Source: Phenylobacterium sp. | GTDB lineage: Bacteria; Pseudomonadota; Alphaproteobacteria; Caulobacterales; Caulobacteraceae | NCBI RefSeq assembly: GCF_018001015.1 | Contig: NZ_JAGNIV010000015.1 | DNA: 64,000 nucleotides | Strand: one strand, 5' to 3' | In this document: positions 49,887 to 63,113 of the stretch, piece after piece | How positions within the stretch are numbered: position 1 is the first letter of the stretch | How the letters are laid out: each line of letters starts with the position of its first letter | Translations under genes and position numbers: made by a program | The notes under the pieces: model-generated | Seen by the model: only the letters and a program-made list of their open reading frames with translations | The model's database searches: none | Told to the model about the DNA's origin: nothing

Positions 49887-50390
49887 TTGGATTACGCCTT
49901 GGACCAGGACCTGCTTCCGCAACTCGCCCGCATCGGCATCAGCCTGCCCGGCAAGCTACTGGCCCAGCTCGACGCCATGGTTTCGCGCCGCGGCCTTCCC
50001 AGCCGTTCGCAGATGATCGCCGAGCTGATTCGCCATGAGTTGGCCGACACTGAGGACGGCCTGGCCGACGGCGTCATGGCCGGCACCATCACCCTGATCT
50101 ACCGCGCCGAGAGCGGCCGCGTCCGTCACGCGCTGGCCCGTGTGCAGAGCGAGTATCTGCCGGAAGTCATTTCCTCGCAGCACGTCTTCCTGGAGGAGGA
50201 TCGCTCCCTGGAGGTCCTGCTTGTCCAGGGCTCGGCGGTTCGGCTGCAACAGCTTTGCGACCGTCTGCGACGAGTGCGGGCGGTGCAGCAGCTGAAGCTC
50301 GTGACGACGCGATCGCTGCTGCCCCCGCTGCATGCCCATGGGACGAGCGAGCCCGCGGATCCGCACCGCCGCCGGGCCGGGGCCCGTTAG
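49887..50390 (+). CDS. NikR-fold (CopG ribbon-helix-helix + ACT-like C-domain) transcriptional regulator, paralogue 1
   Basis: RHH: LARIGISLPGKLLAQLDAMVSRRGLPSRSQMIAELIRHEL. C-domain: AGTITLIYRAESGRV...VISSQHVFLEEDRSLEVLLVQG...VQQLKLV aligns by eye with the NikR metal-binding domain. TTG start uncertain. Confidence 0.8.
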   Translation: MDYALDQDLLPQLARIGISLPGKLLAQLDAMVSRRGLPSRSQMIAELIRHELADTEDGLADGVMAGTITLIYRAESGRVRHALARVQSEYLPEVISSQHVFLEEDRSLEVLLVQGSAVRLQQLCDRLRRVRAVQQLKLVTTRSLLPPLHAHGTSEPADPHRRRAGAR

Positions 50391-50678
50391 CCCAGGCGAT
50401 CAGCGCGGACGGTCATGGCCTGGAACAAGGCCGACCGCAGCCGCGCGACCCAGGGGAGGACGGCCAGCGGCCGGGCGGGTGTTGGGGCGGCTTTTCGAGG
50501 GGCCATGCGAACCTCCGGGCGAGGTTCGAGGGTAGGCGCGAGGCGGGCGGCGGATACGGCGGGGCTTGCGTTCGCTTTCCGCTGAAACCTCTCTGCACAC
50601 TAGGCAAGCAATCTCATCGCCGGTTCGTGCAGATGCGCGGCGCCTCACCCTGCGTATCGGTGCCCGGAAAATTGGAAT

Positions 50679-51671
50679 CTAGACCTTCGCCTCCTGCCCG
50701 AAGGCCGGGGTGGCCGGCGCGCCGACACGGCGTTCCTTCAAGTAGGCGAAGGTGGCGATGGTCTGGGCCATGAGGTGGTCCCCCGAGACCAGGCGCGGAT
50801 AGCGGGCGGGCCGATCGGCGCTGACAAAGGCGGGGTGCGGCTCCACCACCGTCCAGTAGTCGCAGGTGGCGAAGAACGGGAAGCTGTAGCGCTCCTCGCC
50901 CACCCGGCGGACCCGGTGCGTGGTGGCGACGAACTCGCCATTGGTCCAGGCCTCCAGCATGTCGCCTATATTGACCACGAAGGCGCCGGGGATCGGCGGG
51001 CAGTCGATCCAGAGCCCCTCGCCGTTCATCACCTCCAGACCTGGCGCCGTGCCGTGCAGCAGGGTGAAGAACTCATAGTCGGTGTGGGCGCCGATCCCCT
51101 GTTGGTCCGGCTCGGCGTGAGGATCGAAGGGATAGTGGATGACGCGAAGCTGGCTGGGCGGGCAGGTGAGGTGCGGCTCGAAGGCCTCCTGCGGCAGGCC
51201 GAGCGCCAGGGCGAAGCCGCCGAACAGCCGCCGGGCCAGGCCCGAGATCGCGGAATAGTAGGCCCCGGCCGCTCTTCTGAAGCCCTCGTCTTGCGGCCAG
51301 AGATTAGGGCCCATCATCGGGGCGCGAGCATCGCAGGCTGGCCAGTCGAGGCCGATGTCATAGGCCTCCTTCCGGTCGATCTTGCCGCCGGGAAACACCT
51401 CCTCGCCCTCCGGAACATAGCCCGAGTGGTTGGAAGAGCGCCCAATGTAGGACGCGAGCTTAGCGCTCATGGGCTGGGCGAAATAGCGCTGAGCGGCGCT
51501 CAGCAATTCGCTGATGAGAGCCGGGTCAAGGCCGTGCCCGGTGACATAGAGAAAGCCCGCCTCCCGCGCGGCGCGGCCCAGCCCGTCAGCTACCGCCTGG
51601 CGGGCCGCCGGGTCGGATAAGGTCAGGCCGGCGATATTCACCACCGGCACAGTCTGGAACCTGCGTGTCAC
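50679..51671 (-). CDS. 2-oxoglutarate/Fe(II)-dependent oxygenase (isopenicillin-N-synthase/EFE-like family)
   Basis: Facial triad HTD in IGAHTDYEFFTLL and distal H in ATTHRV. 2OG-binding RYSFPFF. GTG at 51671 preceded by GAGAGG is preferred over TTG at 51704. Confidence 0.85.
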   Translation of the reverse strand: MTRRFQTVPVVNIAGLTLSDPAARQAVADGLGRAAREAGFLYVTGHGLDPALISELLSAAQRYFAQPMSAKLASYIGRSSNHSGYVPEGEEVFPGGKIDRKEAYDIGLDWPACDARAPMMGPNLWPQDEGFRRAAGAYYSAISGLARRLFGGFALALGLPQEAFEPHLTCPPSQLRVIHYPFDPHAEPDQQGIGAHTDYEFFTLLHGTAPGLEVMNGEGLWIDCPPIPGAFVVNIGDMLEAWTNGEFVATTHRVRRVGEERYSFPFFATCDYWTVVEPHPAFVSADRPARYPRLVSGDHLMAQTIATFAYLKERRVGAPATPAFGQEAKV

Positions 51672-51851
51672 GATCGGCCTCTCAGGCGGCTCGCGTATTA
51701 CCAATTGATCAGCTCGTATTCGCCCGCGCCGGGTGCGGCGGCAGGGCGACAGGCCTGAAGATTGACGCCTGGACGCTCATCCTGGCGCCTCGCTGCGTAG
51801 TTTTGCGGCGCCTTTGGGCCTGGCGGCGCCGCGCGCGCCGGAGCCGTGGAT

Positions 51852-51877
51852 TATTACGATCTGCGCACTCAGTAATA
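51852..51877. promoter_or_regulatory. TATTAC-N14-GTAATA inverted repeat (candidate operator for the NikR-like regulators), site 2
   Basis: Read directly: TTATTACGAT-CTGCGCAC-TCAGTAATAT, about 47 bp upstream of the ABC binding-protein ATG. Shares TATTACGATC with the site at 63086. Confidence 0.5.
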
Positions 51878-51924
51878 TCGCTCGAATGACGGGCGAGGGC
51901 CGGTCTGCGGAACAGGGGATCGAT

Positions 51925-53022
51925 ATGACCAAGTGGCTTACCGGAGTGAAAGTCGCCGCCACGGCGGCCCTTGTCGGCCTGGCGCTGGCCGCCTGCAGCC
52001 CGAAGACGGAGACCAAGACCGCCGCGGCCCCGGCCGCCAAGACCTACACCGTCGGCTGGACCATCTATGCCGGCTGGATGCCCTGGCCCTACGCCGAACA
52101 GGCCGGGATCGTGAAGAAGTGGTCCGACAAATACGGCGTCGACATCAAGGTGGTGCAGATCAACGACTATGTCGAAAGCCTGAACCAGTTCACCGCCGGC
52201 AAGCTGGACGCGGTGACCTCCACCAACATGGACGCCCTGACCATCCCGGCCGCCGCCGGGAAGGACACCACCTTCCTGATGATCGGCGACTATTCCAACG
52301 GCAACGACGGCATCGTCCTGAAGGGCGGCGCGACCCTGGCCGACATCAAGGGCCGTCCGGTCAACCTCGTCGAGAACTCCGTTTCCCACTACCTGCTGGC
52401 CCGCGGGCTGGAGAGCGCCGGCCTGAAGATGACCGACGTGAAGGTGGTCAACACCTCAGACGCCGACATCGTGGCTGCCTTCGGCGCGCCGGAGACCAAG
52501 GCCGTCGTGCCGTGGAACCCGCAACTGACCGAAATCAAGAAGATGCCCGGCGCAAAGCAGGTTTTCGATTCTTCCAAGATCCCCGGCGAGATCCTCGACG
52601 GCCTGATCATCTCCACCGAGGTGGCCAAGGCCAATCCGAACCTGGCCAAGGCCCTGGCCGGCATCTGGTATGAAACCACCATGCTGATGAACCAGCAGGA
52701 CGCCGCCGGTCAGGCCGCCCGCGAGGCCATGGCCAAGCTCTCCGGCACCGACCTGGCCGGCTACGAGAGCCAGCTGAAGACCACCTACCTCTATTACGAT
52801 CCCAAGGCGGCCCTGGCGGCCACCGCCAGCCCCGACTTGGTCGCGGCCAATGACAAGGTGCGCAAGTTCAGCTTCACCGCCGGCCTGTTCGGCCAAGGCG
52901 CCAAGTCGGTGGACGACATCGGCATCGAGTTCCCGGGCGGCAAGGTCCTGGGCGACCCGAAGAACGTGAAGCTGCGCTTCGACCCGACCTACGTGCAGAT
53001 GGCCGCGGACGGCAAGCTGTAG
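51925..53022 (+). CDS. ABC transporter substrate-binding lipoprotein (NitT/TauT family, urea-carboxylase-region type)
   Basis: Lipobox LALAAC|S. NMT1/TauA-like fold signatures (WTIYAGWMPW..., DAVTSTNMDAL). Followed by permease and ATPase genes. Confidence 0.85.
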   Translation: MTKWLTGVKVAATAALVGLALAACSPKTETKTAAAPAAKTYTVGWTIYAGWMPWPYAEQAGIVKKWSDKYGVDIKVVQINDYVESLNQFTAGKLDAVTSTNMDALTIPAAAGKDTTFLMIGDYSNGNDGIVLKGGATLADIKGRPVNLVENSVSHYLLARGLESAGLKMTDVKVVNTSDADIVAAFGAPETKAVVPWNPQLTEIKKMPGAKQVFDSSKIPGEILDGLIISTEVAKANPNLAKALAGIWYETTMLMNQQDAAGQAAREAMAKLSGTDLAGYESQLKTTYLYYDPKAALAATASPDLVAANDKVRKFSFTAGLFGQGAKSVDDIGIEFPGGKVLGDPKNVKLRFDPTYVQMAADGKL

Positions 53023-53061
53023 GTTCGGCTCTGCAACGTTAACCCAAGGAGGCGATTTCCG

Positions 53062-53886
53062 ATGCGCCGTCTGCTGAACGCGCGGCCGCGGGTCGGGGGT
53101 CGCCTCCTTCTGGGCCTGCTGCCGATCCTGGCGCTGGTCCTGCTCTATCTGGTGGTCGCCACCGCGCGCCACACCGAGAACCCCCGCGACAAGATCACCC
53201 CGATCCCGGCCGCCATGGCCGCCGGCATCCAGACCATGGCCTTCGAGGCCGATCCCCGCACCGGGGAAGTCCCGCTGGTGGCCGACACCAAGGCCAGTTT
53301 GCAGCGTTTGGGTGTCGCGGTCGGACTGGCGGCGGCGACCACCCTGGTGCTTGGACTGACCATCGGCCTGCTGCCCTACGTGCGAGCGAGCCTGGGGCCC
53401 TTGGTCGCCACCATATCGGTGATCCCGCCGATCGCGGTCCTGCCTATCCTTTTCATTGTCTTCGGACTGGGGGAGACCTCGAAGATCGTGCTGATCTTCG
53501 TGGGGATCACGCCCGTGATGGTCCGCGACCTGGCCACCCACGTGGCCGCCATTCCCGAGGAACAGATCGTCAAGGCCCAGACGCTGGGCGCCTCCACCTG
53601 GCTCACCCTGCTCCGCGTCGCCCTGCCCCAGGCCCTGCCGCGCCTGATCGACTCCCTGCGGCTCTCCCTCTGCCCGGCCTGGGTCTATCTGATCTCGGCC
53701 GAGGCCATCGCCTCGGACGTCGGCCTGGGCTACCGGATCTTCCTGGTGCGCCGGTATCTGGCCATGGACATCATCCTCCCTTACGTCGTCTGGATCTCGC
53801 TGCTGGCGGTGATCATGGACCTCGCCCTGCAGGCTTGGAGCCGCACCAGCTTCGCCTGGGCCCACCCGCCGCGGAACGCCCGATGA
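53062..53886 (+). CDS. ABC transporter permease (NitT/TauT family)
   Basis: 6 TM. EAA-like loop EEQIVKAQTLGASTWLTLLRVALPQALPRLIDSL. Confidence 0.9.
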   Translation: MRRLLNARPRVGGRLLLGLLPILALVLLYLVVATARHTENPRDKITPIPAAMAAGIQTMAFEADPRTGEVPLVADTKASLQRLGVAVGLAAATTLVLGLTIGLLPYVRASLGPLVATISVIPPIAVLPILFIVFGLGETSKIVLIFVGITPVMVRDLATHVAAIPEEQIVKAQTLGASTWLTLLRVALPQALPRLIDSLRLSLCPAWVYLISAEAIASDVGLGYRIFLVRRYLAMDIILPYVVWISLLAVIMDLALQAWSRTSFAWAHPPRNAR

Positions 53887-54653
53887 GCAAGCTGGCCTTC
53901 CGCAACGTCTGGGTCGAGTACGGTTCGAAGATCGTCCTGGAGAAGGTCGATCTGGAGGTCGCCGACGGGGCGTTCGTCTCCATCATCGGGCCGTCCGGCG
54001 CGGGCAAGTCCACCTTCCTGCGCCTGGCGCTGGGCCAGGAGGCGCCGACTCGCGGCGCGATCCTGCTGGACGGCGAGCCGCTGTCGCCCGAGCCCGGCCC
54101 CGACCGTGGCGTGGTCTTCCAGCGCTACTCGGTGTTCCCACACATGAACGCCCTAGACAACGTCACCTTCGGCCTGGATTGCGCCGGCTCGCCCCTGCGG
54201 GGCCGGCTCGGCGGCAAGGCCAGGAAGCAGGCCCGCGAAGCGGCCAAGGCCCTGCTGGCGCGGGTGGGGCTGGAGCACAATTTCAAGACCTATCCCCGGG
54301 CCCTGTCGGGGGGCATGCAGCAGCGGCTGGCCCTGGCCCAGGCCCTGATCACGCGGCCACGCATCCTGCTCCTCGACGAGCCGTTCGGGGCGCTGGACCC
54401 TGGCGTGCGCCTGGACATGCACGCCCTGATCACCGAGCTCTGGACCGAGCACAAGCTCACCATCCTGATGGTCACCCACGACATCAAGGAGGCCTTCAAG
54501 CTGGGCACCCGAGTGGTCGCCTTCGACAAACGCCGCCACGATCCCCAGGCGCCGCACCGCTACGGCTCGACAGCGGTCTACGACTTCCCGCTGGACGACA
54601 AGAAGAGCCGCGCCGTGCCGCCGGTGCTGAAGGCGCTCGTCAGCGCACCTTGA
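53883..54653 (+). CDS. ABC transporter ATP-binding protein
   Basis: Walker A GPSGAGKST, signature LSGGMQQRLALA, Walker B ILLLDEPFGALD. ATGA overlap with the permease gene. Confidence 0.9.
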   Translation: MSKLAFRNVWVEYGSKIVLEKVDLEVADGAFVSIIGPSGAGKSTFLRLALGQEAPTRGAILLDGEPLSPEPGPDRGVVFQRYSVFPHMNALDNVTFGLDCAGSPLRGRLGGKARKQAREAAKALLARVGLEHNFKTYPRALSGGMQQRLALAQALITRPRILLLDEPFGALDPGVRLDMHALITELWTEHKLTILMVTHDIKEAFKLGTRVVAFDKRRHDPQAPHRYGSTAVYDFPLDDKKSRAVPPVLKALVSAP

Positions 54654-55686
54654 GCGCCAGGATCACCAGCAGGGCCGAGAGGCCCAGGTGGACCAGCATG
54701 AAGCGCACGAGCACCTGGGTGTTGGACCAGCCCAGCTCCTTGCGGCAGTGGTCGTGCAGCGGGAAGCGGACGCCGGCCAGGATCTTCAGGCCGAAGAACC
54801 GCAGCAGGGCCACCTTCACCAGGCCGGTGGCGCCGTTCATCAGGATCACCGAGCCCACCAGCAGCAGGAACAGCGGATTGTTGGTGGCCACCACCAGCAT
54901 GCCGATCAGCAGGCCCAGCGGCCGCGACCCGGCATCCCCCATCAGCACCAGGCTGGGGGCGGCGTTGTACCAGAGGTAGCCCGCCACACAGCCCACCATC
55001 AGGAAGGCCATGATCGCCCAGTTGGCGCCCTCGCGGGTAAAGGGGACGTTGAGGTGGCCGGCCACCACCTCGTTGCCGAGCACGGCGTAGAGCAGGCCCC
55101 CCAGCAGCAGGATGGCGGTGCCGGTCAAGCTCCCCGAGACCCCATCGACGCCATCGGAGCAGTTTGTGGCGTTGATGGACAGCCAGATGATCCCGCTGGC
55201 CAGCGGGATGGAAAGCCAGGGCCCCAGGATGAGCGTCCCCTTCCAAATGGGCAGCCAGAGGGCGACCGGTTCGAAGCCGTAAATCACCATGGCTGCGCCC
55301 ACCGCGATGGCGGCGTCCATCACGGCCAGCTGGTACTCCGAGAACCCGCCGCGCCGGTCGTCGAAATAGCCCACCAGCATGGCCGCCAGCATCAACGGCA
55401 GGGTCAGCAGGCAGCGGGCGCCGAACGGCACGAAGATCAGACAGGCGGCGCAGAAGATGCTGACGAAGATCAGCCCGGCGCTGATGGGCTTGCCGACGCT
55501 CATCTCGGCGTTGACCGCGAAGGCGCGGCCGCGGTCCGTTGGCAGGCGGGACCAGAGCCGGGGCAGCAGGATCCAGGTGGTGAGCGCGCAAAGGGCGAAG
55601 CCGATCCCCGCCAGGAAGAAGAAGGACTCGAAAAGCCGCAGGGGTCCCCAGGCGTAGCCCAGGGTCGAATGGATCGCGCTCAGCAT
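54640..55686 (-). CDS. MraY-like polyprenyl-phosphate phospho-sugar transferase (GT4 family paralogue)
   Basis: VGYFDDRRG, INATNCSDGVDGVSGS, LMGDAGSRPLG and PLHDHCRKELGWS parallel the MraY DDxxK, NxxNxxDGxDG, GDxGS and PxHHHFExxGW motifs. About 10 TM. Last gene on the carboxylase strand. Confidence 0.8.
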   Translation of the reverse strand: MLSAIHSTLGYAWGPLRLFESFFFLAGIGFALCALTTWILLPRLWSRLPTDRGRAFAVNAEMSVGKPISAGLIFVSIFCAACLIFVPFGARCLLTLPLMLAAMLVGYFDDRRGGFSEYQLAVMDAAIAVGAAMVIYGFEPVALWLPIWKGTLILGPWLSIPLASGIIWLSINATNCSDGVDGVSGSLTGTAILLLGGLLYAVLGNEVVAGHLNVPFTREGANWAIMAFLMVGCVAGYLWYNAAPSLVLMGDAGSRPLGLLIGMLVVATNNPLFLLLVGSVILMNGATGLVKVALLRFFGLKILAGVRFPLHDHCRKELGWSNTQVLVRFMLVHLGLSALLVILALKVR

Positions 55687-55746: not shown

Positions 55747-57525
55747 CTAGGCCGGGAGCCCTGCGATATAGGCGCGCCATCCGCCCAGCGCGGTGATGTC
55801 CTCGGCGCCGACGATGGCGCGGGGTTCGGCGACGAAACCCTTCACCGAGCCGCCGCCCTCCAGGGTGACCGTGCCGATGGCCAAGGGCGCGGGCACCTCG
55901 ACGACGAAGCTGCCGAAGGCCTCGACGCCCAGCTCATAGACCTCCACCTCGATGGCCCCGCCGCCCTCGCCCACATGGATCAGGGCCGGCTTGAAGGGGG
56001 TGGTGTTGGTCATGGCGAACAGCTTGTAGGCGGGCGCGGTCTTGGTGCGGCTGACCAGCTTGGCGTCGCGGGAGGTGAGCTGCCAGTGCAGGGGCATGCC
56101 GGCCAGGTGGGCGCCCACGACGGCGAGCTTCACGGTCTGGGGCTTGCCGGCGGTGTCGAGGGCAGGCGCGTCGGGCATGGGGGAGATCTCCTCGTAGCGG
56201 CGGGCCAGGTCGAGCAGCACGTCGTCCGCCCAGGCCTGCCCCACCAGGGTGACGCCGAAGCCGGTGTCATTGTCGCGGAACCCGGCCGGGACCGCGATGG
56301 CGCTCATGTCCAGCAGGTTGACGAAGTTGGTGTAGAGCCCGAGCGCGCCGTTCAGGGCGAAGGGCTCGGCAGTAACCTCGGCCAGGCGGTAGATGGTGGG
56401 CGTGGTGGGCAGCAGCAGGACATCGACCTGGGGCCAGATGGCCTCCGCCGCGCGGGCATGGTCGGCTAGGGCATAGAGGCCGCGGAAGGTGTCGACGCCG
56501 GTGACCCCGAACCCGCCCTGCAGGATGGCGCGCACCGTGGGGTTCACCGCCGCCGGGGTCTCCCGCAGCAGGGTCTCGATGGCTGCGGTGCGCTCAGCAA
56601 CCCAGGGTCCGCTGTAGAGCAGCTTGGCGGCCTCCAGCAGGGGCTCGATGTCGATCTCGACGGTGACGCCTCCCATTGCGGTGACCCGCTCGACAGCTCG
56701 CGCATAGATGGCCTGGGCCTGGTCGTCGCCCATGAAGATCAGTTGATCCGCCTTCGGAACGCCGAAGCGGAATGAGGCGCCCAGCAGGTCGGTCGCGGAG
56801 GGCGCGCGTCGCGAATAGGTGTCGGAGGGATCGAAGGCCGCGACCACTGAGTCCACCAGGGCCGCGTCGGCGACGTCGTTGGCCAGCACCGTCACGCAAT
56901 CGAGGGAGCGGCAGGCGGGCACGACGCCACTTGTGCTCCAGCGGCCCTTGGTGGGTTTGAAGCCGATCAGGCCGTTGAAGGCCGCGGGCACCCGGCCCGA
57001 GCCTGCCGTGTCGGTCCCGAGCGCGAAGGCCACCAGGCCGGCCGCCACCGCTACCGCCGAGCCCGAACTCGACCCGCCGCTGACATAGGCCAGATTGTAG
57101 ACGCAGGCCGGCGCGCCATAGGGGCTGCGGGCGCCCACCAGGCCGGTGGCGAACTGATCCAGGTTGGTCTTGCCCATGCAGATCGCGCCCGCCGCCAGCA
57201 GCCGGGCGGCCACCGTGGCCGTGTCCTCGGGGTCGTAGGCATAGGCCGGGCACGCTGCCGTGGTGGGCAGGCCCGCCACGTCGATATTGTCCTTCACCGC
57301 GAAGGGCACGCCCGCCAGGGGCAGGCGCTCGCCGGCGGCCACCCGGGCGTCCACGGCGCGGGCCTGGGTCAGCACGGTTTGCGGATCGGGCCGCATGATC
57401 CAGGCGTGGGCCTGGACCTCGTCATAGGCGGCGATGGCCTCCAGGGCCTGGGCGATGACGCTTTCGGCCGAACGGGCGCCGCTGGAGACGGCCGACGCGA
57501 TGGCGGTGATGGAAAGGCGGGTCAT
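55747..57525 (-). CDS. atzF: Allophanate hydrolase (amidase-signature N-domain + AtzF C-domain)
   Basis: Amidase signature GGSSSGSAVAVAAG...GTDTAGSGRVPAA, with the C-terminal allophanate-hydrolase-specific domain. Immediately downstream of the carboxylase gene. Confidence 0.9.
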   Translation of the reverse strand: MTRLSITAIASAVSSGARSAESVIAQALEAIAAYDEVQAHAWIMRPDPQTVLTQARAVDARVAAGERLPLAGVPFAVKDNIDVAGLPTTAACPAYAYDPEDTATVAARLLAAGAICMGKTNLDQFATGLVGARSPYGAPACVYNLAYVSGGSSSGSAVAVAAGLVAFALGTDTAGSGRVPAAFNGLIGFKPTKGRWSTSGVVPACRSLDCVTVLANDVADAALVDSVVAAFDPSDTYSRRAPSATDLLGASFRFGVPKADQLIFMGDDQAQAIYARAVERVTAMGGVTVEIDIEPLLEAAKLLYSGPWVAERTAAIETLLRETPAAVNPTVRAILQGGFGVTGVDTFRGLYALADHARAAEAIWPQVDVLLLPTTPTIYRLAEVTAEPFALNGALGLYTNFVNLLDMSAIAVPAGFRDNDTGFGVTLVGQAWADDVLLDLARRYEEISPMPDAPALDTAGKPQTVKLAVVGAHLAGMPLHWQLTSRDAKLVSRTKTAPAYKLFAMTNTTPFKPALIHVGEGGGAIEVEVYELGVEAFGSFVVEVPAPLAIGTVTLEGGGSVKGFVAEPRAIVGAEDITALGGWRAYIAGLPA

Positions 57526-57530
57526 GGGGC

Positions 57531-60500
57531 TCAGGCCGGTTCGAGGGCGATCATCGGGGCGCCGGGCGCGATCGGCTGGCGTTCCTGGGCGTAGACCTGG
57601 CGGACGACGCCGGCGCTGGGGCTGGCCACGTCGCATTCGGTCTTCATGGCCTCGATCACCGCGATGATCGCGCCCTTCTCCACCCGGTCACCTACCTCCA
57701 CCAGCATCTTCCAGACGCTGCCCCCCAGGGGGGCCTCGACGAACTCCGAGCCGCCAGGCGCCTCGAAGGCGGCGGCGGGCGCGTCGTCTATGGCTTCGCT
57801 CGACAGCGCCTCGACCCGGGCGAACTCGCCCTTCACCTCCCAGTCGGCGCGCTCGGCCTCGAAGGCCGCCTGGCGGGTCGCCTGGAAGGCCGCGATGGAC
57901 TCGGCGTTGTCGGCCAACATCTTGCGATAGTCGGAGAGCCTGAAGGTCTCCTCGTCGATGCGGATCTCGCGGCGGCCAAGCGGGAAATCGCGGCGCCACT
58001 CGGTGAGCTCCTCGTGGCTCACCGGGAAGAACCGGATCTGGTCGAAGAACCGCAGCAGCCAGGGCTTGCCCTCGGTGAAGGCGTTCGTCTGGCGATAGGT
58101 GTTCCAGACCTGGATGGTGCGCCCGAACAGCTGATAGCCGCCGGGACCCTCCATGCCGTAGATGCACATATAGGCCCCGCCGATGCCGACGACGTTGGGG
58201 GGCGTCCAGGTGCGGGCCGGGTTGTACTTCGTCGTCACCAGCCTGTGGCGGGGATCGACCGGGGTGGCGACTGGGGCGCCCAGATAGACGTCCCCCAGGC
58301 CCATCACCAGGTAGCGGGCGTCGAAGACGATGCGGTGGACGTCATCCTCGCTCTCCAGGCCGTTGATGCGCCGGATGAACTCGATGTTGTCGGGGCACCA
58401 GGGGGCGTCATCGCGCACTGAGGCCATGTACTTGTCGATGGTCTCGTAGATCGCCGGGTCCTTCCAGGACAGCGGCAGGTGGATCACCCGGCTGGGGATC
58501 TCGAAGTCGTCCAGGCCGCCCAGGCTCTCCTCCATGTCGGCGAGGGCCTGCAGCAAGCGGACCTGGGGCAGGACGCGGCTGTCATAGTGGACCTGCAGGG
58601 AGCGGATACCGGGGGTGATGTCGATGACGCCAGGCAGGGCCTGGGCCTGCAGTTCCAGCATCAGGGCGTGGATGCGCAGGCGCAGTTCGAGGTCCAGAAT
58701 GATGGGGCCATATTCGACCAGGAGATGCCGGTCCCCTTGGCGGCGATAGACCACCTGCGGCCGGTGGCCCACAGCCTCGATCGTCGCCAGCACCGGGTTG
58801 GTGATCCCGTCGTCGAACAGGTCGCGGTGCGTCGCCTTGGCGGGCGAGGGCCCTGGCTCCAGGCTCGCCACCAGCCGGTCCTGCTCGGCCTCCGCCAGGG
58901 TGGCGGCGGTGTCGCCCACCACCTCGAAGGTGACCGTATCGCCTGGCGCCAGCTGCCCCACCTTCCACAGGTCGGCCGCGATCACCACGAAGGGACAGAC
59001 GAACCCGCCGAGCGAGGGCCCGTCCGGCCCCAGGATGATCGGCATGTCGCCGGTGAAGTCGACAGCCCCGATCGCGTAGGCGTTATCGTGGATGTTGGAG
59101 GGGTGCAGCCCCGCCTCCCCGCCGTCCCGCCGCGCCCAGTGTGGCTTTGGGCCGATCAGGCGAACCCCGGTGCGGTTGGAATTGTAGTGCACCTTCCACT
59201 CGGCCGAGCGGACCATGGCGATGTCGGCTGGCGTGAAGAAGTCCGGGGCGCCGTGGGGTCCCGCCAGGACGCGGATCGCCCAGGCCTTGCTGAGGCTGGG
59301 GCGCGCCGCCATCGCCAGGGGCTGCGCCACGTCGGCCACCTCGGCGTCCCCCAGGTGCAGCACGTCGCCGGCCGCCAGGGTCCGTCCCGCATGGCCGCCG
59401 AAGCCGCCAAGGGTGAAGCTGGAGCGGCTGCCGAGATAGGCCGGGACATCCAGCCCGCCGCGCACCAGCAGATAGGCCCGCAGCCCCGAACCCTTCACCC
59501 GGGCGATCTTCAGGGTCTGGCCCGCGGCGATGGTGATCGGGGCGTAGGTGGCCACCGGCTCGCCGTCGAGGCTGGCCTCCAGCTCGGCGCCGGTCAGACA
59601 GACCACGGCCTCATGGTTGAAGATCAGGGCGGGGCCAAGGGCGGTGATTTCCAGCCCGGCCGCGCCCTCGGGATTGCCGAGAAGCTTATTGCCCAGCCGA
59701 AACGCGAGCGCGTCCATCGGCCCTGACGGCGGCACGCCGACGTCCCAGTAGCCGAGGCGGCCGGGATAGTCCTGAACCGTGGTGGCTGGTCCGCCGCTCA
59801 GCACACGGATGGTGCGGGGCTGGAACACGATGTCAGCCAGGGACCGCGTCGAGACCTGGCCGCTGACGAAGGCCTCGCTGCGCGCCACCTGCCGAAGCCA
59901 TTCGAGATTGGTCTCCAGGCCGTAGAGGGCGGCGCCGTCCAGCGCCTGTTGCAGGGCGCGGACGGCGCTCGCGCGGTCATCGGCGGTGACGATCAGCTTG
60001 GCCAGCAGCGGGTCGTAGTGGGCGCTGACTTCCGAGCCGTCGGTGATCCAGGTGTCGACCCGGACATCCTGAGGGAAACTGGCCTTGGTGAGCACACCCG
60101 ACGAGGGGCGATAGTCCTGGCCCGGGTCCTCGGCATAGAGCCGCGCCTGAATCGATGCGCCCCTTGCCGTGCCATCGAAGGTGTCGAGGAAACCGTAGTC
60201 CCCGGCCGCCCCGCGGATCATCCATTCCACCAGGTCGACTCCGGTGACCTGCTCGGTGACGCCGTGCTCTACCTGCAGGCGGGTGTTCACCTCCAGGAAG
60301 AAGAAGTCGTCGCGCTCGGAGTCGTAGAGGAACTCCACCGTGCCGGCCGAGCGGTAGTCGGCGGCGGCGCACAGACGTACGGCCGCCGCCATCAAGGCGG
60401 CGCGGGTGGCGGCCGGAAGGTGGGACGCGGGCGTCTCCTCGATGACCTTCTGGTTACGGCGCTGCAGGGAGCAGTCGCGCTCACCCAGGGCCACGACCTT

Positions 60501-61154
60501 GCCGGCGCCGTCGCCGAACACCTGCACCTCGATGTGGCGGGCCTGGCGCACATAGCGCTCCAGGAACACGCCCGCGTCCGAGAAATTGGATCCCGCCAGA
60601 CGCGCCACGGCGGCGAAGGCCTCGGCCACGGCCTCGGGCGTCTCGCAGACCCGCATCCCGATGCCGCCGCCGCCAGCGGTGGCCTTGAGAATCACCGGGA
60701 AGCCGATGCGCACCGCCGCCTCGCGCGCGGCGTCGGCGTCGGTCAGCAGGTCGGTGCCTGGGGCGAGCGGCACCCCCTGGGCCTGAGCCAGGTCGCGGGC
60801 CGTATGCTTCAAGCCGAAGGCCAGGATATTGGCGGGCGTCGGGCCGATGAAAGCGATGCCTGCGGCCTCGCAGCGCTCTGCGAAGATGGTGTTCTCGCTG
60901 AGGAAGCCGTAGCCCGGATGGATGGCCTGGGCGCCCGTGGCCTTGGCGGCGGCCAGGATGGCGTCGATGTCGAGATAGGACTGGGCGGCGGGCGCGGGCC
61001 CGATCCTGACGGCCTCGTCGGCCTGGGAGACGTGCAGGCTGCCCGCGTCGGCGTCGGAGAACACCGCCACCGAGCCGACACCCATGGTCTTCAGGGTTCG
61101 GATGATCCGGCAGGCGATGGCGCCCCGGTTCGCGATCAGGACCTTGTCGAACAC
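57531..61154 (-). CDS. Biotin-dependent urea carboxylase family enzyme (urea or guanidine carboxylase)
   Basis: 1207 aa. Biotin carboxylase N-terminus MFDKVLIANRGAIACRIIRT..., KipA/KipI-like (allophanate hydrolase subunit 1/2) central domains, C-terminal biotinyl motif IEAMKTE. Confidence 0.9.
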   Translation of the reverse strand: MFDKVLIANRGAIACRIIRTLKTMGVGSVAVFSDADAGSLHVSQADEAVRIGPAPAAQSYLDIDAILAAAKATGAQAIHPGYGFLSENTIFAERCEAAGIAFIGPTPANILAFGLKHTARDLAQAQGVPLAPGTDLLTDADAAREAAVRIGFPVILKATAGGGGIGMRVCETPEAVAEAFAAVARLAGSNFSDAGVFLERYVRQARHIEVQVFGDGAGKVVALGERDCSLQRRNQKVIEETPASHLPAATRAALMAAAVRLCAAADYRSAGTVEFLYDSERDDFFFLEVNTRLQVEHGVTEQVTGVDLVEWMIRGAAGDYGFLDTFDGTARGASIQARLYAEDPGQDYRPSSGVLTKASFPQDVRVDTWITDGSEVSAHYDPLLAKLIVTADDRASAVRALQQALDGAALYGLETNLEWLRQVARSEAFVSGQVSTRSLADIVFQPRTIRVLSGGPATTVQDYPGRLGYWDVGVPPSGPMDALAFRLGNKLLGNPEGAAGLEITALGPALIFNHEAVVCLTGAELEASLDGEPVATYAPITIAAGQTLKIARVKGSGLRAYLLVRGGLDVPAYLGSRSSFTLGGFGGHAGRTLAAGDVLHLGDAEVADVAQPLAMAARPSLSKAWAIRVLAGPHGAPDFFTPADIAMVRSAEWKVHYNSNRTGVRLIGPKPHWARRDGGEAGLHPSNIHDNAYAIGAVDFTGDMPIILGPDGPSLGGFVCPFVVIAADLWKVGQLAPGDTVTFEVVGDTAATLAEAEQDRLVASLEPGPSPAKATHRDLFDDGITNPVLATIEAVGHRPQVVYRRQGDRHLLVEYGPIILDLELRLRIHALMLELQAQALPGVIDITPGIRSLQVHYDSRVLPQVRLLQALADMEESLGGLDDFEIPSRVIHLPLSWKDPAIYETIDKYMASVRDDAPWCPDNIEFIRRINGLESEDDVHRIVFDARYLVMGLGDVYLGAPVATPVDPRHRLVTTKYNPARTWTPPNVVGIGGAYMCIYGMEGPGGYQLFGRTIQVWNTYRQTNAFTEGKPWLLRFFDQIRFFPVSHEELTEWRRDFPLGRREIRIDEETFRLSDYRKMLADNAESIAAFQATRQAAFEAERADWEVKGEFARVEALSSEAIDDAPAAAFEAPGGSEFVEAPLGGSVWKMLVEVGDRVEKGAIIAVIEAMKTECDVASPSAGVVRQVYAQERQPIAPGAPMIALEPA

Positions 61155-61159
61155 TGATC

Positions 61160-61789
61160 CTATCCCGCGATGATCATGCGCACGGGCGTCGGATTGAAGC
61201 CGTTGCAGGGATTGTTGATCTGCGGGCAGTTGGAGACGATGGCTACCAGATCCATTTCCGCGCGCAGATCGACATAGAGGCCCGGCGCCGAGATGCCGTC
61301 GACGATGCCCAGGGCCCCGTCAGCCTCAACCGGCACGTTCATGAACCAGTTGATGTTGGAGACCATGTCGCGCTTGCCGCGCCCGTGCTTGGCGTTGGCC
61401 TGCAGGAAGTTCTCGACGCAGGCGTGCTGGCTCTTGGTGTGGTGGCCGTAGCGCAGGGTGTTGCTCTCGCAGGAGCACGCCCCGCCGATGGTGTCGTGAT
61501 ACGCCACCGAGGTGCCCGTGACCGTGGCCATGGCGGCGCCCTCGTTGGAGAGCAGCACCGAGCCCGCGCGCAGGAAGATATTGCCCTGGGCGGCCATGGT
61601 GTCCTGGGCCGAATAGCGCTCGGCGTCGTCGGCCAGCGCATACATCAGAAAATCGACGGCCTGGTTGCCCTCTAGGTCGATGATACGCAGGGTCTGGCCC
61701 TTGCGCACCACCGCGTCCCAGGGCGCGCGGGCGGGAACGATGTCGTCGCGGACGATGGCGCCGGTTAGACCGGCCAGGGAACTGCTCAT
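61160..61789 (-). CDS. Urea-carboxylase-associated protein, DUF1989 family (CgdB-like)
   Basis: RIIDLEGNQAVDFLMY...GGACSCESN...NINWFMNVPV is typical of DUF1989. Paired with a second DUF1989 gene next to the carboxylase. Confidence 0.85.
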   Translation of the reverse strand: MSSSLAGLTGAIVRDDIVPARAPWDAVVRKGQTLRIIDLEGNQAVDFLMYALADDAERYSAQDTMAAQGNIFLRAGSVLLSNEGAAMATVTGTSVAYHDTIGGACSCESNTLRYGHHTKSQHACVENFLQANAKHGRGKRDMVSNINWFMNVPVEADGALGIVDGISAPGLYVDLRAEMDLVAIVSNCPQINNPCNGFNPTPVRMIIAG

Positions 61790-62610
61790 CGGCTGTACTC
61801 GGCCTCGACATTGAGGAAGGCGCGCAGGCCCTCCGGGGTGGCGGTGCGCAGGGGGTCATCGGCCGGCGTCACCGGGCCGCGCCAGGCGCTGACCCGCAGC
61901 GGGGTGACGGTGTAGTCGGACCGGGCGTCCAGCACGTGGGGGCAGTTGGCCAGCACCACGATGACGTCCATCTCCGCGCGGAGGATCAGGCTGCGGCCCG
62001 GGGCGAAGGGGCCGTGCTGCGGCAAGAGCGATCCGTCGTCCTCGACCTTCATGCCCTTGAACCAGTTGAGGCAGGGGTGGATGTCGCGCCGCGCCAGGCC
62101 GAACTTGGCGACACCGAGACTGAACCGGTCCCGCGCATTGGGATGCGGGCCCCAGTTGTCGCCTGTCCCGTACTTCGCCGCATTGGTGGCCTGGTTGGAA
62201 GCGCCGCAGAAGGCGTCATGGGTCCCGGCGCCGTCCTCCAGCACGCTGAACATCACCCGGCCCATGTCCGAGAGCACCAGCTTGCCGGCGCCTAGATAGG
62301 CGTTCCACTGGACCTTCAGGGTGTCGGCCACGTTCAGCCGCTCGATGGGCCGCTCGGCGTTGAAGATCAGCATCGAGGCGCAGGCGTCGCCGGCCAGGTC
62401 GGTCAGTTGTAGACGCGCGCCGCGGTTCAGCCGCTTGGCGCCGTAGCCGCCCGGCGCGATCGTCTCGGCCCAGACCATGTCAGCCGACGAGACCCCGTGG
62501 GGCAGTTCGCTCACCGCGCTGGCGGGCAGGATCGGCATGGCCTCGACCTGCGTCCCGGCCATGGCCCGCGCATGAGCCTGGGCGGCATAGGGGCTGGCGG
62601 TGTCGGTCAT
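61786..62610 (-). CDS. Urea-carboxylase-associated protein, DUF1989 family (CgdA-like)
   Basis: RLQLTDLAGDACASMLIFN...NARDRFSLG...CLNWFKGMKV is typical of DUF1989. 4-nt overlaps on both sides. Confidence 0.85.
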   Translation of the reverse strand: MTDTASPYAAQAHARAMAGTQVEAMPILPASAVSELPHGVSSADMVWAETIAPGGYGAKRLNRGARLQLTDLAGDACASMLIFNAERPIERLNVADTLKVQWNAYLGAGKLVLSDMGRVMFSVLEDGAGTHDAFCGASNQATNAAKYGTGDNWGPHPNARDRFSLGVAKFGLARRDIHPCLNWFKGMKVEDDGSLLPQHGPFAPGRSLILRAEMDVIVVLANCPHVLDARSDYTVTPLRVSAWRGPVTPADDPLRTATPEGLRAFLNVEAEYSR

Positions 62611-63068
62611 ATCGCCTCCTCCGGATCGAACAGAGCATGCAGGGGCGGCAGCAAGGCGGTGGTGGTCACCAGCTTGAGTTGCTGCACGCCGCGGATCTTT
62701 CGCAGCTCGTCGCAGAGGTCGCGCAGGCGCTCCGACGGCCCCTGGACGAGCAGCACTTCCAGGGACTGGTCGTCCTCCAGGAAGACGTGCTGGGAGGAGA
62801 TCACCTCCTCCAGATAGGCCTGCTGGGCCTGGGCCAGGGCCTGGCGGACCCGGCCGCTCTCGGTGCGGTAGATCAGCGTAATAGTGCCGGCCAGGATCAC
62901 GCCGGCCCGCTCCTCGCCATGCTCGGCCAGCTCGTGGCGGATCAGTTCGGCGATCATCTGAGAGCGGCTGGGCAGGCCGCGTTCGGTGACCATGGCGTCG
63001 AGCTGGACCACCAGTTCGGCCGGCATGCTCAGACTCAGTCGCGCCAGGGGAAGGCTCTCGAGGTTCAT
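62607..63068 (-). CDS. NikR-fold (RHH + ACT-like) transcriptional regulator, paralogue 2; first gene of the carboxylase operon
   Basis: LARLSLSMPAELVVQLDAMVTERGLPSRSQMIAELIRHEL...AGTITLIYRTESGRV...VISSQHVFLEDDQSLEVLLVQG...VQQLKLV. Roughly 70 percent identical by eye to the 49887 paralogue. Overlaps the next gene by 4 nt. Confidence 0.8.
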   Translation of the reverse strand: MNLESLPLARLSLSMPAELVVQLDAMVTERGLPSRSQMIAELIRHELAEHGEERAGVILAGTITLIYRTESGRVRQALAQAQQAYLEEVISSQHVFLEDDQSLEVLLVQGPSERLRDLCDELRKIRGVQQLKLVTTTALLPPLHALFDPEEAI

Positions 63069-63085
63069 GCGCCGATGTGCGGCCA

Positions 63086-63113
63086 GTATTACGATCCGAT
63101 CAAATCGTAATAC
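63086..63113. promoter_or_regulatory. Perfect 28-bp palindrome GTATTACGAT-N8-ATCGTAATAC (candidate operator), site 1
   Basis: Read directly. 10+10 bp perfect inverted repeat about 18 bp upstream of the ATG (63068) of the NikR-like gene heading the carboxylase operon. Confidence 0.55.

What the first reader, a model, noticed from the sequence alone, without database searches (positions are those of the whole stretch)
49887..63113. Urea/guanidine-carboxylase island controlled by NikR-fold proteins rather than a riboswitch
The minus-strand operon reads NikR-like, DUF1989, DUF1989, 1207-aa biotin carboxylase, allophanate hydrolase, MraY-like. Its upstream genes are joined by 4-nt overlaps or short gaps; the MraY-like gene follows a 60-bp gap. 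Next to it, a NitT/TauT-type ABC importer diverges from a 2OG oxygenase, and a second NikR-like paralogue closes the island. From memory, carboxylase + two DUF1989 + allophanate hydrolase + this ABC type has been reassigned from urea to guanidine assimilation in several bacteria. There it is usually preceded by a guanidine-I (ykkC) riboswitch. I could not find ykkC-like conserved stretches in either leader (51672-51924, 63069-63193). Instead, two ribbon-helix-helix/ACT regulators and a shared palindrome occupy those positions. A NikR-fold protein governing nitrogen-compound catabolism is not something I know to be described.
Basis: partly seen in the sequence, partly recalled or inferred. Interest (0 to 1): 0.72.

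Follow-up and report, generated by a model that had tools for sequence, protein, structure and literature searches.

The report
Protein regulator of guanidine breakdown genes
A large, undescribed branch of the nickel-sensor (NikR) protein family has lost its nickel site and sits, with a conserved DNA operator, at the head of guanidine-degradation operons, where other bacteria carry a guanidine riboswitch; it is therefore the first concrete candidate for a protein that senses guanidine.

Summary
No ykkC/guanidine riboswitch is detectable. The "shared palindrome" is real: TATTAC-N14-GTAATA, at exactly three places in 64 kb, all of them island promoters.

In 73 of 73 related genome loci with downstream DNA, the NikR-like gene directly precedes DUF1989-DUF1989-carboxylase. 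The allophanate hydrolase follows wherever the contig reaches it, except in L039. The operator lies just upstream in 78 of 80. The same holds for homologues only 36-50% identical, from Sphingomonadales, Acinetobacter, other Gammaproteobacteria, Verrucomicrobiota and Kiritimatiellia. Clusters without the regulator (Rhizobium, Pantoea, Burkholderia) carry Guanidine-I riboswitches and no operator.

The proteins have the NikR fold. They lack three of the four nickel ligands, fall below all curated NikR cut-offs, and carry a clade-specific PPLH tail.

The island is a guanidine island, not a urea one. The 2OG oxygenase and a newly recognised MgdL-like gene (49059-49787) resemble the published methylguanidine demethylation pair. 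The second regulator (R2) is a distinct subfamily linked to that gene.

The ligand and the sign of regulation remain inferred. My best guess is a guanidine-released repressor. No paper found describes this.

The parts
63087..63112 (-). Operator O1: TATTAC-N14-GTAATA. The full palindrome is GTATTACGAT-N8-ATCGTAATAC, 63086-63113. It ends 18 nt before the R1 ATG. Its spacer contains TTGATC, a possible -35 element.
   Evidence: The orthologous site is present upstream of the regulator in 78 of 80 loci, with invariant half-sites and a variable spacer.
62607..63068 (-). R1: a NikR-fold regulator (RHH DNA-binding domain, ACT-like C-domain and a TTALLPPLH tail). It is the first gene of the guanidine carboxylase operon.
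   Evidence: Pfam RHH_1 + NikR_C. AF2 model plus Foldseek to NikR structures, with C-domain TM 0.82-0.90. Ni ligands H76/H89/C95 are replaced. It scores below the NCBIfam NikR cut-offs. Synteny is conserved.
61786..62610 (-). cgdA-type DUF1989 protein (UAAP1), a presumed carboxyguanidine deiminase subunit.
   Evidence: Pfam DUF1989; TIGR03425 scores 295 bits against a cut-off of 206.
61160..61789 (-). cgdB-type DUF1989 protein (UAAP2), a presumed carboxyguanidine deiminase subunit.
   Evidence: Pfam; TIGR03424 scores 331 bits against a cut-off of 285.
57531..61154 (-). Biotin-dependent urea/guanidine carboxylase (gca/uca), 1207 aa.
   Evidence: Pfam domains; TIGR02712 scores 1829 bits; full-length match to K. 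lactis urea carboxylase 3va7.
55747..57528 (-). Allophanate hydrolase (atzF).
   Evidence: Amidase + AH_C; TIGR02713 scores 754 bits.
54640..55686 (-). Glycosyltransferase family 4 (MraY-like) membrane protein. It is a lineage-specific addition after atzF, not a core part of the system.
   Evidence: Pfam; MraY model scores 101.7 bits against a cut-off of 192; present only in L002, L003, L004 and L006.
51925..54653 (+). NitT/TauT-type ABC importer: substrate-binding lipoprotein 51925-53022, permease 53062-53886, ATPase 53883-54653.
   Evidence: Pfam; TIGR03427 ABC_peri_uca scores 551 bits; conserved next to the operon in most loci.
51852..51877 (+). Operator O2: exact TATTAC-N14-GTAATA, 47 nt upstream of the SBP ATG.
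   Evidence: Equivalent sites lie upstream of SBP genes in many loci and in L081, L091, L093 and L094.
51696..51721 (-). Operator O3: GAATAC-N14-GTAATA (2 mismatches). It lies 24 nt upstream of the probable GTG start of the 2OG oxygenase and 156 bp from O2.
   Evidence: Paired operators with the same spacing of about 155 bp occur in L013 and L017.
50679..51671 (-). IPNS/EFE-type 2OG-Fe(II) oxygenase. It is a candidate MgdH-like hydroxylase that releases guanidine from a substituted guanidine.
   Evidence: DIOX_N + 2OG-FeII_Oxy. The best solved relative is an ethylene/succinate-forming-enzyme homologue, 9ovh, E 1e-56. It is 46% identical to the oxygenase in the Acinetobacter guanidine cluster. 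It is conserved divergent from the SBP gene, and next to mgdL-like genes in L095, L096 and L110.
49887..50390 (+). R2: a paralogous NikR-fold regulator of a distinct subfamily (RHH strand ARIGIS, QGS, TTRSLLPPLH).
   Evidence: Orthologues follow an mgdL-like gene in L039, L050, L095, L096, L097, L100 and L102. A conserved promoter-like block, without an operator, lies upstream.
49059..49787 (+). MgdL-like beta-barrel protein, a candidate N-(hydroxymethyl)guanidine lyase.
   Evidence: 27% identity, E 1e-15, to Vreelandella boliviensis MgdL taken from Supplementary Data 1 of PMC12508155. Phenylobacterium homologues appear in that paper's MgdL alignment.

Best explanation
R1 and R2 belong to a large clade of NikR-fold transcription factors that no longer sense nickel. 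Members have an N-terminal ribbon-helix-helix domain, a C-terminal ACT-like tetramerisation domain and a clade-specific PP(L/I)H tail. They are the dedicated regulators of guanidine assimilation. As a tetramer with two RHH dimers, the protein binds 26-bp operators (TATTAC-N14-GTAATA, half-site centres 20 bp apart). These operators overlap the core promoters of three units: (i) its own operon R1-cgdA-cgdB-gca-atzF, (ii) the NitT/TauT-type ABC importer, and (iii) an MgdH-like 2OG oxygenase. Most likely it represses these promoters until guanidine, or a close derivative, binds the C-terminal domain and releases it. This is the job a Guanidine-I riboswitch does in Rhizobium, Pantoea and Burkholderia. 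R2 is encoded behind an MgdL-like lyase gene and beside the oxygenase. It is a specialised paralogue that probably connects the methylguanidine (substituted-guanidine) branch to the same regulon. What is shown: fold, loss of the Ni site, conserved synteny, the conserved operator, and the complementary or positional relation to riboswitches. What is inferred: DNA binding by this protein to this operator, repression, and the identity of the ligand.
For: Synteny. In 73 of 73 GTDB loci with downstream DNA, the regulator is immediately followed on the same strand by DUF1989-DUF1989-carboxylase. The allophanate hydrolase follows wherever the contig extends far enough, except in L039, where R2 follows the carboxylase directly. 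The same arrangement is seen in Novosphingobium, Asticcacaulis and Acinetobacter records. It is also seen in 7 of 7 sampled distant subclade members from Verrucomicrobiota, Gammaproteobacteria and Kiritimatiellia.

Operator. The three window sites are the only ones in 64 kb. An exact or 1-mismatch site lies 6-47 nt upstream of the tblastn match to the regulator (about 18-21 nt from the start codon) in 78 of 80 loci. In 79 distinct sequences the half-sites are invariant and the spacer varies. The site is present in all 11 extra regulator-bearing loci and absent, even at <=2 mismatches, from the three riboswitch-only clusters.

Riboswitch relation. Neither the window nor 13 of 14 further Rfam-scanned loci among L001-L080 has a Guanidine-I hit; the exception, L062, has one in front of a separate TonB-receptor gene, not the regulator operon. 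Rhizobium, Pantoea and Burkholderia clusters lack the regulator and have Guanidine-I at the operon start. L091 and L092 have the operator at the operon start but keep the internal Guanidine-II.

Not a nickel sensor. The E. coli ligands H76/H87/H89/C95 correspond to variable/H/F/S in 120 family members. All NCBIfam NikR models score below their cut-offs. Among representatives, 46 of 46 canonical HHHC NikRs lack the tail, while 47 non-canonical ones have it.

Fold. The C-domain has pLDDT 86-93 and TM 0.82-0.90 to NikR C-domains.

Repressor geometry. In the window, O1 ends 18 nt from a start codon that has no Shine-Dalgarno sequence, and its spacer holds a -35-like TTGATC. In Acinetobacter, two of three operators begin 5 nt after the -12 element of sigma-54-type promoters, so they cover +1.

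Guanidine pathway identity. The UAAP1/UAAP2/urea_carbox/AH/ABC_peri_uca models are all met. The pathway is described in PMC12508155 and PMC12186494.
Against: No experiment has been done; ligand binding and regulation are inferred only from context.

The four columns of the former Ni site differ between subclades that share the same genomic context (QHFS, RHQR, HHHT, QHQV). No conserved guanidinium pocket could be identified, and some subclades keep three histidines.

In Acinetobacter the same operon has both an operator and a Guanidine-I riboswitch. In L062 a Guanidine-I-controlled gene lies next door. The protein may therefore sense something other than guanidine.

In canonical NikR the ligand promotes DNA binding. 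Inducer logic would require reversed allostery.

No promoter could be mapped with confidence in the window. No operator was found upstream of R2 or the mgdL-like gene, so the targets of R2 are unknown.
Confidence: 0.55

Rival explanations
1. The regulator is specific to the operon, but its effector is a substituted guanidine or pathway precursor (methylguanidine, N-hydroxymethylguanidine, a creatinine-derived compound) rather than free guanidine. It would open the promoters when a precursor is present, and riboswitches, where they exist, would report free guanidine.
For: It coexists with Guanidine-I on one operon in Acinetobacter and with Guanidine-II in L091 and L092. The regulon includes an MgdH-like oxygenase with its own operator. 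R2 is linked to mgdL-like genes in 8 contigs. Creatininase/Rieske-oxygenase blocks lie upstream in L088 and L089. There is published precedent for riboswitches with differing guanidine/methylguanidine specificity (PMC12508155).
Against: Most regulator-bearing loci show only the core guanidine pathway and the importer, with no oxygenase or lyase within reach and no riboswitch. In those loci free guanidine would have no sensor.
Confidence: 0.17
2. The protein is a co-repressor-type sensor of nitrogen sufficiency or of a pathway product (ammonium-derived metabolite, urea, allophanate). It would keep NikR's allosteric direction, in which ligand binding promotes DNA binding, and so shut the operon off when its products accumulate.
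For: This is the allosteric direction of canonical NikR (established knowledge). The operators overlap core promoters. A co-repressor role would not duplicate the guanidine riboswitches that coexist with the regulator in Acinetobacter.
Against: In lineages without any riboswitch the operon would have no substrate-specific induction. In Acinetobacter the promoters look sigma-54-dependent, so nitrogen status would already be sensed through an NtrC-type activator. The operator occupies the position of Guanidine-I in otherwise identical operons.
Confidence: 0.15
3. It is still a metal (nickel) sensor. It would switch the cell between Ni-dependent routes (urease, guanidine hydrolase GdmH) and the Ni-independent, ATP-consuming carboxylase route.
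For: There is clear homology to NikR. The carboxylase pathway is the Ni-free alternative (PMC2667541; PMC12508155). One His (H94) is nearly invariant, and some subclades keep three His at the site. Databases label these proteins 'nickel-responsive'.
Against: Three of the four square-planar ligands are replaced by Q/S, F and S in R1, R2 and 114 of 120 relatives, and the site columns vary freely among subclades. All curated NikR models score below cut-off. No nickel transporter or Ni-enzyme gene lies next to any of the ~100 loci examined. The positional exchange with guanidine riboswitches also argues against it.
Confidence: 0.1
4. The NikR-like genes are passengers without a regulatory link to the island (for example antitoxin-like CopG proteins), and the palindromes are coincidental.
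For: RHH proteins are common as antitoxins, and R2 has a weak HicB_lk_antitox hit.
Against: Gene order and operator are conserved across phyla. The operator is present only where the regulator is present. No toxin partner exists. A full NikR_C domain is present.
Confidence: 0.02

Closest known systems
NikR (nickel-responsive repressor of E. coli, H. pylori, P. horikoshii; PDB 2hzv, 2bj1, 6mrj)
   Same: The two-domain architecture (RHH + NikR_C) and the fold are the same. The base-reading strand pattern R-x-S/T-x-S/T is the same. The operator has the same design: two 6-bp inverted half-sites about two helical turns apart. For comparison, the E. coli site is GTATGA-N16-TCATAC; this is from memory, not tested here.
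   Different: The high-affinity Ni site (H76', H87, H89, C95) is not conserved. All curated NikR models score below cut-off. There is an extra invariant C-terminal tail (TTALLPPLH). The half-site sequence and the spacing (N14) differ. The regulon is guanidine catabolism and uptake, not nickel uptake or nickel enzymes. The gene is embedded in the operon it controls.
Guanidine-I (ykkC, RF00442) riboswitch
   Same: It controls the same gene set (NitT/TauT ABC importer, cgdAB, gca, atzF) from the same position at the 5' end of the operon. By inference it responds to the same signal.
   Different: It is RNA and acts in cis on transcription termination, whereas the regulator is a trans-acting DNA-binding protein at the promoter. 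The riboswitch is absent from the window. The two coexist in Acinetobacter.
MgdH/MgdL methylguanidine demethylation module of Vreelandella boliviensis (PMC12508155)
   Same: An IPNS-type 2OG oxygenase and a beta-barrel 'hypothetical' protein are attached to a guanidine carboxylase cluster. The window's 49059-49787 protein is homologous to MgdL, and Phenylobacterium homologues are in the authors' alignment.
   Different: In the window the two genes are not adjacent in one operon; they are separated by R2 and convergent. Control is by NikR-fold proteins and operators instead of Gd-I/Gd-II. Identity to MgdL is only 27%.
Other ligand-responsive RHH repressors (MetJ with SAM, PutA, CopG/Arc)
   Same: They read DNA with an RHH beta-ribbon, and in MetJ a small-molecule effector modulates operator binding (established knowledge).
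   Different: They have different effector domains, and none is known to respond to guanidine or to control nitrogen-compound catabolism through a NikR_C/ACT-like tetramer.

Membership tests
NikR (nickel-responsive regulator) | RHH DNA-binding domain fused to a NikR_C (ACT-like) domain | tested here: met
   Pfam: R1 has NikR_C at 5.7e-22 and RHH_1 at 7.5e-06; R2 is similar.
NikR (nickel-responsive regulator) | Three-dimensional fold of NikR | tested here: met
   The AF2 C-domain has pLDDT 86-93. The top Foldseek hits are all NikR, with C-domain TM 0.82-0.90 and rmsd 1.4-2.2 A. The RHH domain is poorly modelled as a monomer.
NikR (nickel-responsive regulator) | High-affinity square-planar Ni site (E. 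coli H76', H87, H89, C95) | tested here: not met
   R1 has Q/H/F/S and R2 has S/H/F/S. Across 120 relatives the columns are variable / H (114) / F (114) / S (114).
NikR (nickel-responsive regulator) | Score above curated family cut-offs (NCBIfam NF003381, NF002169, NF001884, NF002815, TIGR02793) | tested here: not met
   R1 scores 96.6/105, 83.7/111, 62.6/119, 60.3/83 and 55.9/175 (bits/cut-off). R2 is lower on all but one model.
NikR (nickel-responsive regulator) | Genomic association with nickel uptake or nickel-enzyme genes | tested here: not met
   Every regulator-bearing locus examined shows guanidine-carboxylase context and no nik, urease or hydrogenase genes.
NikR (nickel-responsive regulator) | Ni(II)-dependent operator binding | not testable with these tools
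   This needs EMSA or ITC with purified protein.
Guanidine carboxylase pathway (Gca, CgdAB, AtzF) | Paired DUF1989 genes (UAAP1 + UAAP2) next to a urea_carbox-type carboxylase and an allophanate hydrolase | tested here: met
   TIGR03425, TIGR03424, TIGR02712 and TIGR02713 all score above their cut-offs; gene order.
Guanidine carboxylase pathway (Gca, CgdAB, AtzF) | Homologous clusters are controlled by guanidine riboswitches | tested here: met
   Guanidine-I and/or Guanidine-II are found in L082, L083, L084, L085, L086, L091 and L092.
Guanidine carboxylase pathway (Gca, CgdAB, AtzF) | Carboxylase prefers guanidine over urea | not testable with these tools
   This needs an enzyme assay. The assignment rests on literature for homologues (PMC12508155, PMC12186494).
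Guanidine-I/II/III/IV riboswitches | Match to the Rfam covariance model in a leader | tested here: not met
   There are no hits at gathering score in 64 kb or at E<=10 in 49500-64000. The positive controls are found.
MgdL (N-(hydroxymethyl)guanidine lyase) | Sequence homology to V. boliviensis MgdL | tested here: met
   BLASTP gives 27% identity over 238 aa, E 1e-15. Phenylobacterium homologues are in the authors' family alignment. Activity was not tested.
MgdH (methylguanidine hydroxylase) | Sequence homology to V. boliviensis MgdH (A0A265DXP8) | tested here: inconclusive
   The Pfam type and the annotation '2OG-Fe(II) oxygenase (isopenicillin N synthase)' are the same, and the gene recurs next to MgdL-like genes. 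The MgdH sequence itself was not available.
MraY | Score above the TIGR00445 cut-off | tested here: not met
   101.7 bits against a cut-off of 192. It is a family-4 glycosyl/phosphosugar transferase of unknown role.

The most novel reading that the evidence does not exclude
This clade would be the first known protein receptor for free guanidine. The ACT-like tetramer of the NikR fold would have been re-tooled to bind a guanidinium cation (or methylguanidinium, in the R2 subfamily) instead of Ni(II), releasing the protein from TATTAC-N14-GTAATA operators. That would make it a protein counterpart that has repeatedly displaced, or been layered on, the Guanidine-I riboswitch. The R1/R2 pair would discriminate guanidine from methylguanidine much as Gd-I and Gd-II do in Vreelandella.
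Probability: 0.4. Interest if true: 0.85.

Novelty: new variant of a known kind. Interest (0 to 1): 0.78.

Why it matters
A 2025 review states that riboswitches are the only known guanidine receptors and that guanidine-binding transcription factors remain to be found (PMC12186494). This clade is a concrete, widespread and immediately testable candidate. It numbers thousands of proteins in Alpha- and Gammaproteobacteria, Verrucomicrobiota and Kiritimatiellia, and it comes with a defined 26-bp operator.

It also shows that a large part of what databases label "nickel-responsive regulator NikR / CopG family" is mis-annotated.

It offers a natural case of an RNA sensor and a protein sensor exchanging places on the same operon.

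It could supply parts for guanidine or methylguanidine biosensors, which are relevant to metformin/guanylurea pollution and to engineered guanidine production.

Finally, it extends the recently discovered MgdH/MgdL methylguanidine module to Caulobacteraceae and Acinetobacter.

Tried and rejected
- **Sigma-70 promoter and terminator scans.** Scans of the R1 leader and of the Acinetobacter leaders found nothing usable.
- **Sigma-54 promoter downstream of O1 in the window.** I considered one (TGGCC-N-GC) and rejected it, because the transcription start would fall inside the R1 ORF. Clear sigma-54-type promoters were seen only in Acinetobacter.
- **Operators upstream of R2 and the mgdL-like gene.** There are none even at 3 mismatches. 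Only a conserved promoter-like block (TTGATC-N16-GCGAC) and a small hairpin at 49840-49861 were found.
- **Inferring a guanidinium pocket from the former Ni-site columns.** I abandoned this because those columns vary among subclades that share the same context.
- **A crude regular-expression screen for the Guanidine-I core.** It gave false positives inside coding regions (L074, L094) that Rfam did not confirm. Only the Rfam results are used.
- **Neighbourhoods of mgdL-like genes in L021 and L039.** They showed only a TetR gene and a polyamine-type ABC transporter, which says nothing about R2's role.
- **Literature searches.** Searches for NikR, CopG or ribbon-helix-helix together with guanidine or urea carboxylase returned no relevant paper.
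- **The AF2 monomer model.** The RHH domain came out poor (pLDDT 35-68), as expected for an intertwined dimer. Oligomer modelling was not possible with the tools.

Full report
**1. The observation**

The window is about 68% G+C. Its nearest relatives are Phenylobacterium genomes; R1 is 96% identical to L001.

On the minus strand:

| Gene | Coordinates | Evidence |
|---|---|---|
| R1 | 62607-63068 | RHH_1 + NikR_C |
| UAAP1/DUF1989 | 61786-62610 | TIGR03425 |
| UAAP2/DUF1989 | 61160-61789 | TIGR03424 |
| carboxylase, 1207 aa | 57531-61154 | TIGR02712, 1829 bits |
| allophanate hydrolase | 55747-57528 | TIGR02713 |
| family-4 glycosyltransferase | 54640-55686 | Glycos_transf_4 |

The stated overlaps and gaps are correct: 4 nt, 4 nt, 5 nt, 2 nt, then 60 nt.

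On the plus strand lies an ABC importer, 51925-54653. Its binding protein is TIGR03427 'ABC_peri_uca'. It diverges from an IPNS/EFE-type 2OG oxygenase. The oxygenase most plausibly starts at the GTG at 51671, which is preceded by GAGAGG.

R2 (49887-50390) is 69% identical to R1.

**2. No riboswitch, and the negative is meaningful**

Rfam finds nothing at gathering score in the 64 kb. It finds no guanidine family even at E<=10 in the island.

The same scan detects Guanidine-I, and often Guanidine-II, in homologous clusters of Rhizobium, Pantoea and Burkholderia. The negative result is therefore not a limitation of the tool.

**3. The palindrome is an operator**

The R1 leader contains GTATTACGAT-N8-ATCGTAATAC. 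The ABC leader contains TATTAC-N14-GTAATA.

A pattern search finds exactly three sites in 64 kb, even with 3 mismatches allowed:
- 63087-63112, exact;
- 51852-51877, exact;
- 51696-51721, 2 mismatches, 24 nt upstream of the oxygenase start.

At <=2 mismatches, 0.04 sites are expected by chance.

In 80 genome loci encoding R1 relatives, 75 have an exact site and 78 a site with <=1 mismatch. The site lies 6-47 nt upstream of the tblastn match to the regulator. Allowing for N-terminal residues not covered by tblastn, it ends about 18-21 nt before the start codon.

Across 79 distinct sequences the two hexamers are essentially invariant. The spacer varies and is A/T-rich. This is the signature of a protein-binding site.

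Second and third copies lie upstream of the importer and the oxygenase. The two copies in that divergent region keep a spacing of about 155 bp in the window, L013 and L017.

**4. Conserved synteny, far beyond the close relatives**

In all 73 loci with enough downstream DNA, the order is regulator-DUF1989-DUF1989-carboxylase on one strand. The allophanate hydrolase follows wherever the contig extends far enough, except in L039, where R2 follows the carboxylase directly. These loci include Steroidobacteraceae, which are Gammaproteobacteria.

The same arrangement holds in:
- Novosphingobium and Asticcacaulis replicons;
- Acinetobacter, where the regulator is only 36-37% identical;
- 7 of 7 members sampled from divergent subclades, drawn from Verrucomicrobiota, Gammaproteobacteria and Kiritimatiellia.

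All of these loci carry the operator, in some as the symmetric variant TAATAC-N14-GTATTA. The three clusters without the regulator have no operator at <=2 mismatches.

**5. Relation to riboswitches**

Rhizobium and Pantoea have this architecture: Gd-I, SBP, permease, ATPase, cgdA, cgdB, Gd-II, gca (followed by atzF in Rhizobium only).

L091 and L092 have: operator, SBP, permease, ATPase, regulator, cgdA, cgdB, Gd-II, gca, atzF.

The protein/operator pair therefore occupies the position of Guanidine-I.

The two devices are not strictly exclusive:
- In Acinetobacter an operator, a sigma-54-type promoter (TGGCAT-N5-TTGCA) and a Guanidine-I aptamer follow one another in front of cgdA.
- In L062 a Gd-I riboswitch controls a TonB-dependent receptor immediately upstream of the operator-regulator operon.

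**6. NikR fold, but not NikR**

The profile matches P. horikoshii NikR at 1.9e-30. The AF2 C-domain is confident, and Foldseek returns only NikR structures.

The square-planar Ni ligands (E. coli H76', H87, H89, C95) align to Q/H/F/S in R1 and S/H/F/S in R2. In 120 relatives the columns are variable / H(114) / F(114) / S(114).

All five curated NikR models score below their cut-offs.

Among representatives clustered at 50% identity, 46 of 46 canonical HHHC proteins lack the C-terminal PP(L/I)H tail. Forty-seven non-canonical proteins have it. This is a separate and large clade: 2191, 1791 and 2866 hits in three searches.

The former metal-site columns differ between subclades that share the same context. 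I could not locate a ligand pocket from sequence.

**7. A guanidine island with a methylguanidine branch**

The UAAP1/UAAP2 + carboxylase + allophanate hydrolase + NitT/TauT importer set is the guanidine carboxylase pathway described in PMC12508155 and PMC12186494.

PMC12508155 also describes MgdH, an IPNS-type 2OG oxygenase, and MgdL, a beta-barrel lyase. Together they demethylate methylguanidine.

Phenylobacterium homologues are in the authors' own alignment.

The window's oxygenase has the same Pfam type. It is 46% identical to the oxygenase that sits next to an MgdL-like gene in the Acinetobacter guanidine cluster. It neighbours mgdL-like genes in L095, L096 and L110.

**8. R2**

R2 orthologues form a tight subfamily, with ARIGIS in the RHH strand where all 120 R1-type relatives have S. 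They also have QGS and TTRSLLPPLH.

They follow an mgdL-like gene in the window, L039, L050, L095, L096, L097, L100 and L102.

A conserved promoter-like block lies upstream of R2, but no TATTAC operator does. R2's DNA targets are unknown. A role in sensing the substituted-guanidine branch is a hypothesis only.

**9. Mechanism**

What is shown:
- fold;
- loss of the Ni site;
- conserved gene order;
- conserved operators at three promoters;
- positional exchange with Gd-I.

What is inferred:
- A tetramer bridges the two half-sites, whose centres are 20 bp apart.
- Binding occludes the promoter. In the window, O1's spacer holds a -35-like TTGATC, identical to the -35-like element of the conserved R2 promoter block. 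O1 ends 18 nt before an ATG with no Shine-Dalgarno sequence, which suggests a leaderless mRNA. In Acinetobacter, two operators start 5 nt after the -12 element of sigma-54-type promoters.
- Guanidine or a close derivative releases the repressor.

The rivals are a substituted-guanidine effector, a product or nitrogen-status co-repressor, and residual metal sensing. They are weighed in the rival section.

**10. Novelty**

Full-text searches combining NikR, CopG or ribbon-helix-helix with guanidine or urea carboxylase, and for 'NikR-like', found no description.

A 2025 review states that riboswitches are the only known guanidine receptors and anticipates guanidine-binding transcription factors.

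I therefore rate this a new variant of a known kind: a known fold, with a new effector class and a new regulon. Interest is high. The ligand remains unproven.

Noticed in passing
window 54640-55686 (-): A family-4 glycosyl/phosphosugar transferase (MraY-like, but at 101.7 bits well below the MraY cut-off of 192) is appended to the operon after atzF. It occurs only in the four closest relatives (L002, L003, L004, L006). L001 and L007 lack it. Its role in a guanidine operon is unexplained.
   Followed up: partly
window ~48930-49056 (+): Immediately upstream of the mgdL-like gene lies the conserved C-terminal end of an ABC permease (…RSGYEPTLCVGA…IGDLPKLTGRHRPLEA*). In L039, L095, L096 and L100-L102 this belongs to an intact polyamine-type ABC operon. 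In the window only a relic remains (an ORF of at most 89 aa). The DNA further upstream is a chemotaxis cluster (CheR, CheB, CheY, CheD at 43-47 kb). This suggests a deletion.
   Followed up: partly
L088 1329-8916 and L089 1917-8906: In two Verrucomicrobia-type contigs the regulator-gca operon is preceded by a conserved block: creatininase, Rieske ring-hydroxylating oxygenase, glutamine-synthetase-like protein, SDR, polysaccharide deacetylase, FGE-sulfatase and AP_endonuc_2. It may be a pathway that converts creatinine or another guanidino compound to guanidine.
   Followed up: no
L062 7035-9904: A Guanidine-I riboswitch (88.7 bits) lies directly in front of a TonB-dependent outer-membrane receptor, next to the operator-controlled gca operon. 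Novosphingobium L081 also has a TonB receptor divergent from the operator-bearing SBP promoter. This hints at active outer-membrane uptake of guanidine compounds.
   Followed up: partly
L081 16077-16184: In Novosphingobium, two further exact operators lie between a YncE-like beta-propeller gene and a fatty-acid-hydroxylase/sterol-desaturase-family gene followed by a TPR-sulfotransferase. These are unexpected additional regulon members.
   Followed up: no
L085 15250-15310; L086 152-205, 9803-9850, 17461-17510: In Acinetobacter, every operator abuts a textbook sigma-54 promoter (TGGCA[CT]-N5-[CT]TGC[AT]). The guanidine genes there seem to integrate an NtrC-type nitrogen signal, the NikR-like protein and a Guanidine-I riboswitch. 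In the plasmid copy, a STAND-NTPase gene and a Phd/RelE toxin-antitoxin pair are inserted between uca and the regulator.
   Followed up: partly
window 49826-49861: A promoter-like block (TTGATC-N16-GCGAC) is conserved upstream of R2 in the window, L039 and L050. In the window it overlaps a 7-bp-stem hairpin, GCGACTG-N8-CAGTCGC.
   Followed up: partly
/ / one search hit tables: Thousands of proteins of this clade are named 'CopG family nickel-responsive transcriptional regulator' or 'NikR' by JGI and NCBI sources. This appears to be a systematic mis-annotation.
   Followed up: yes
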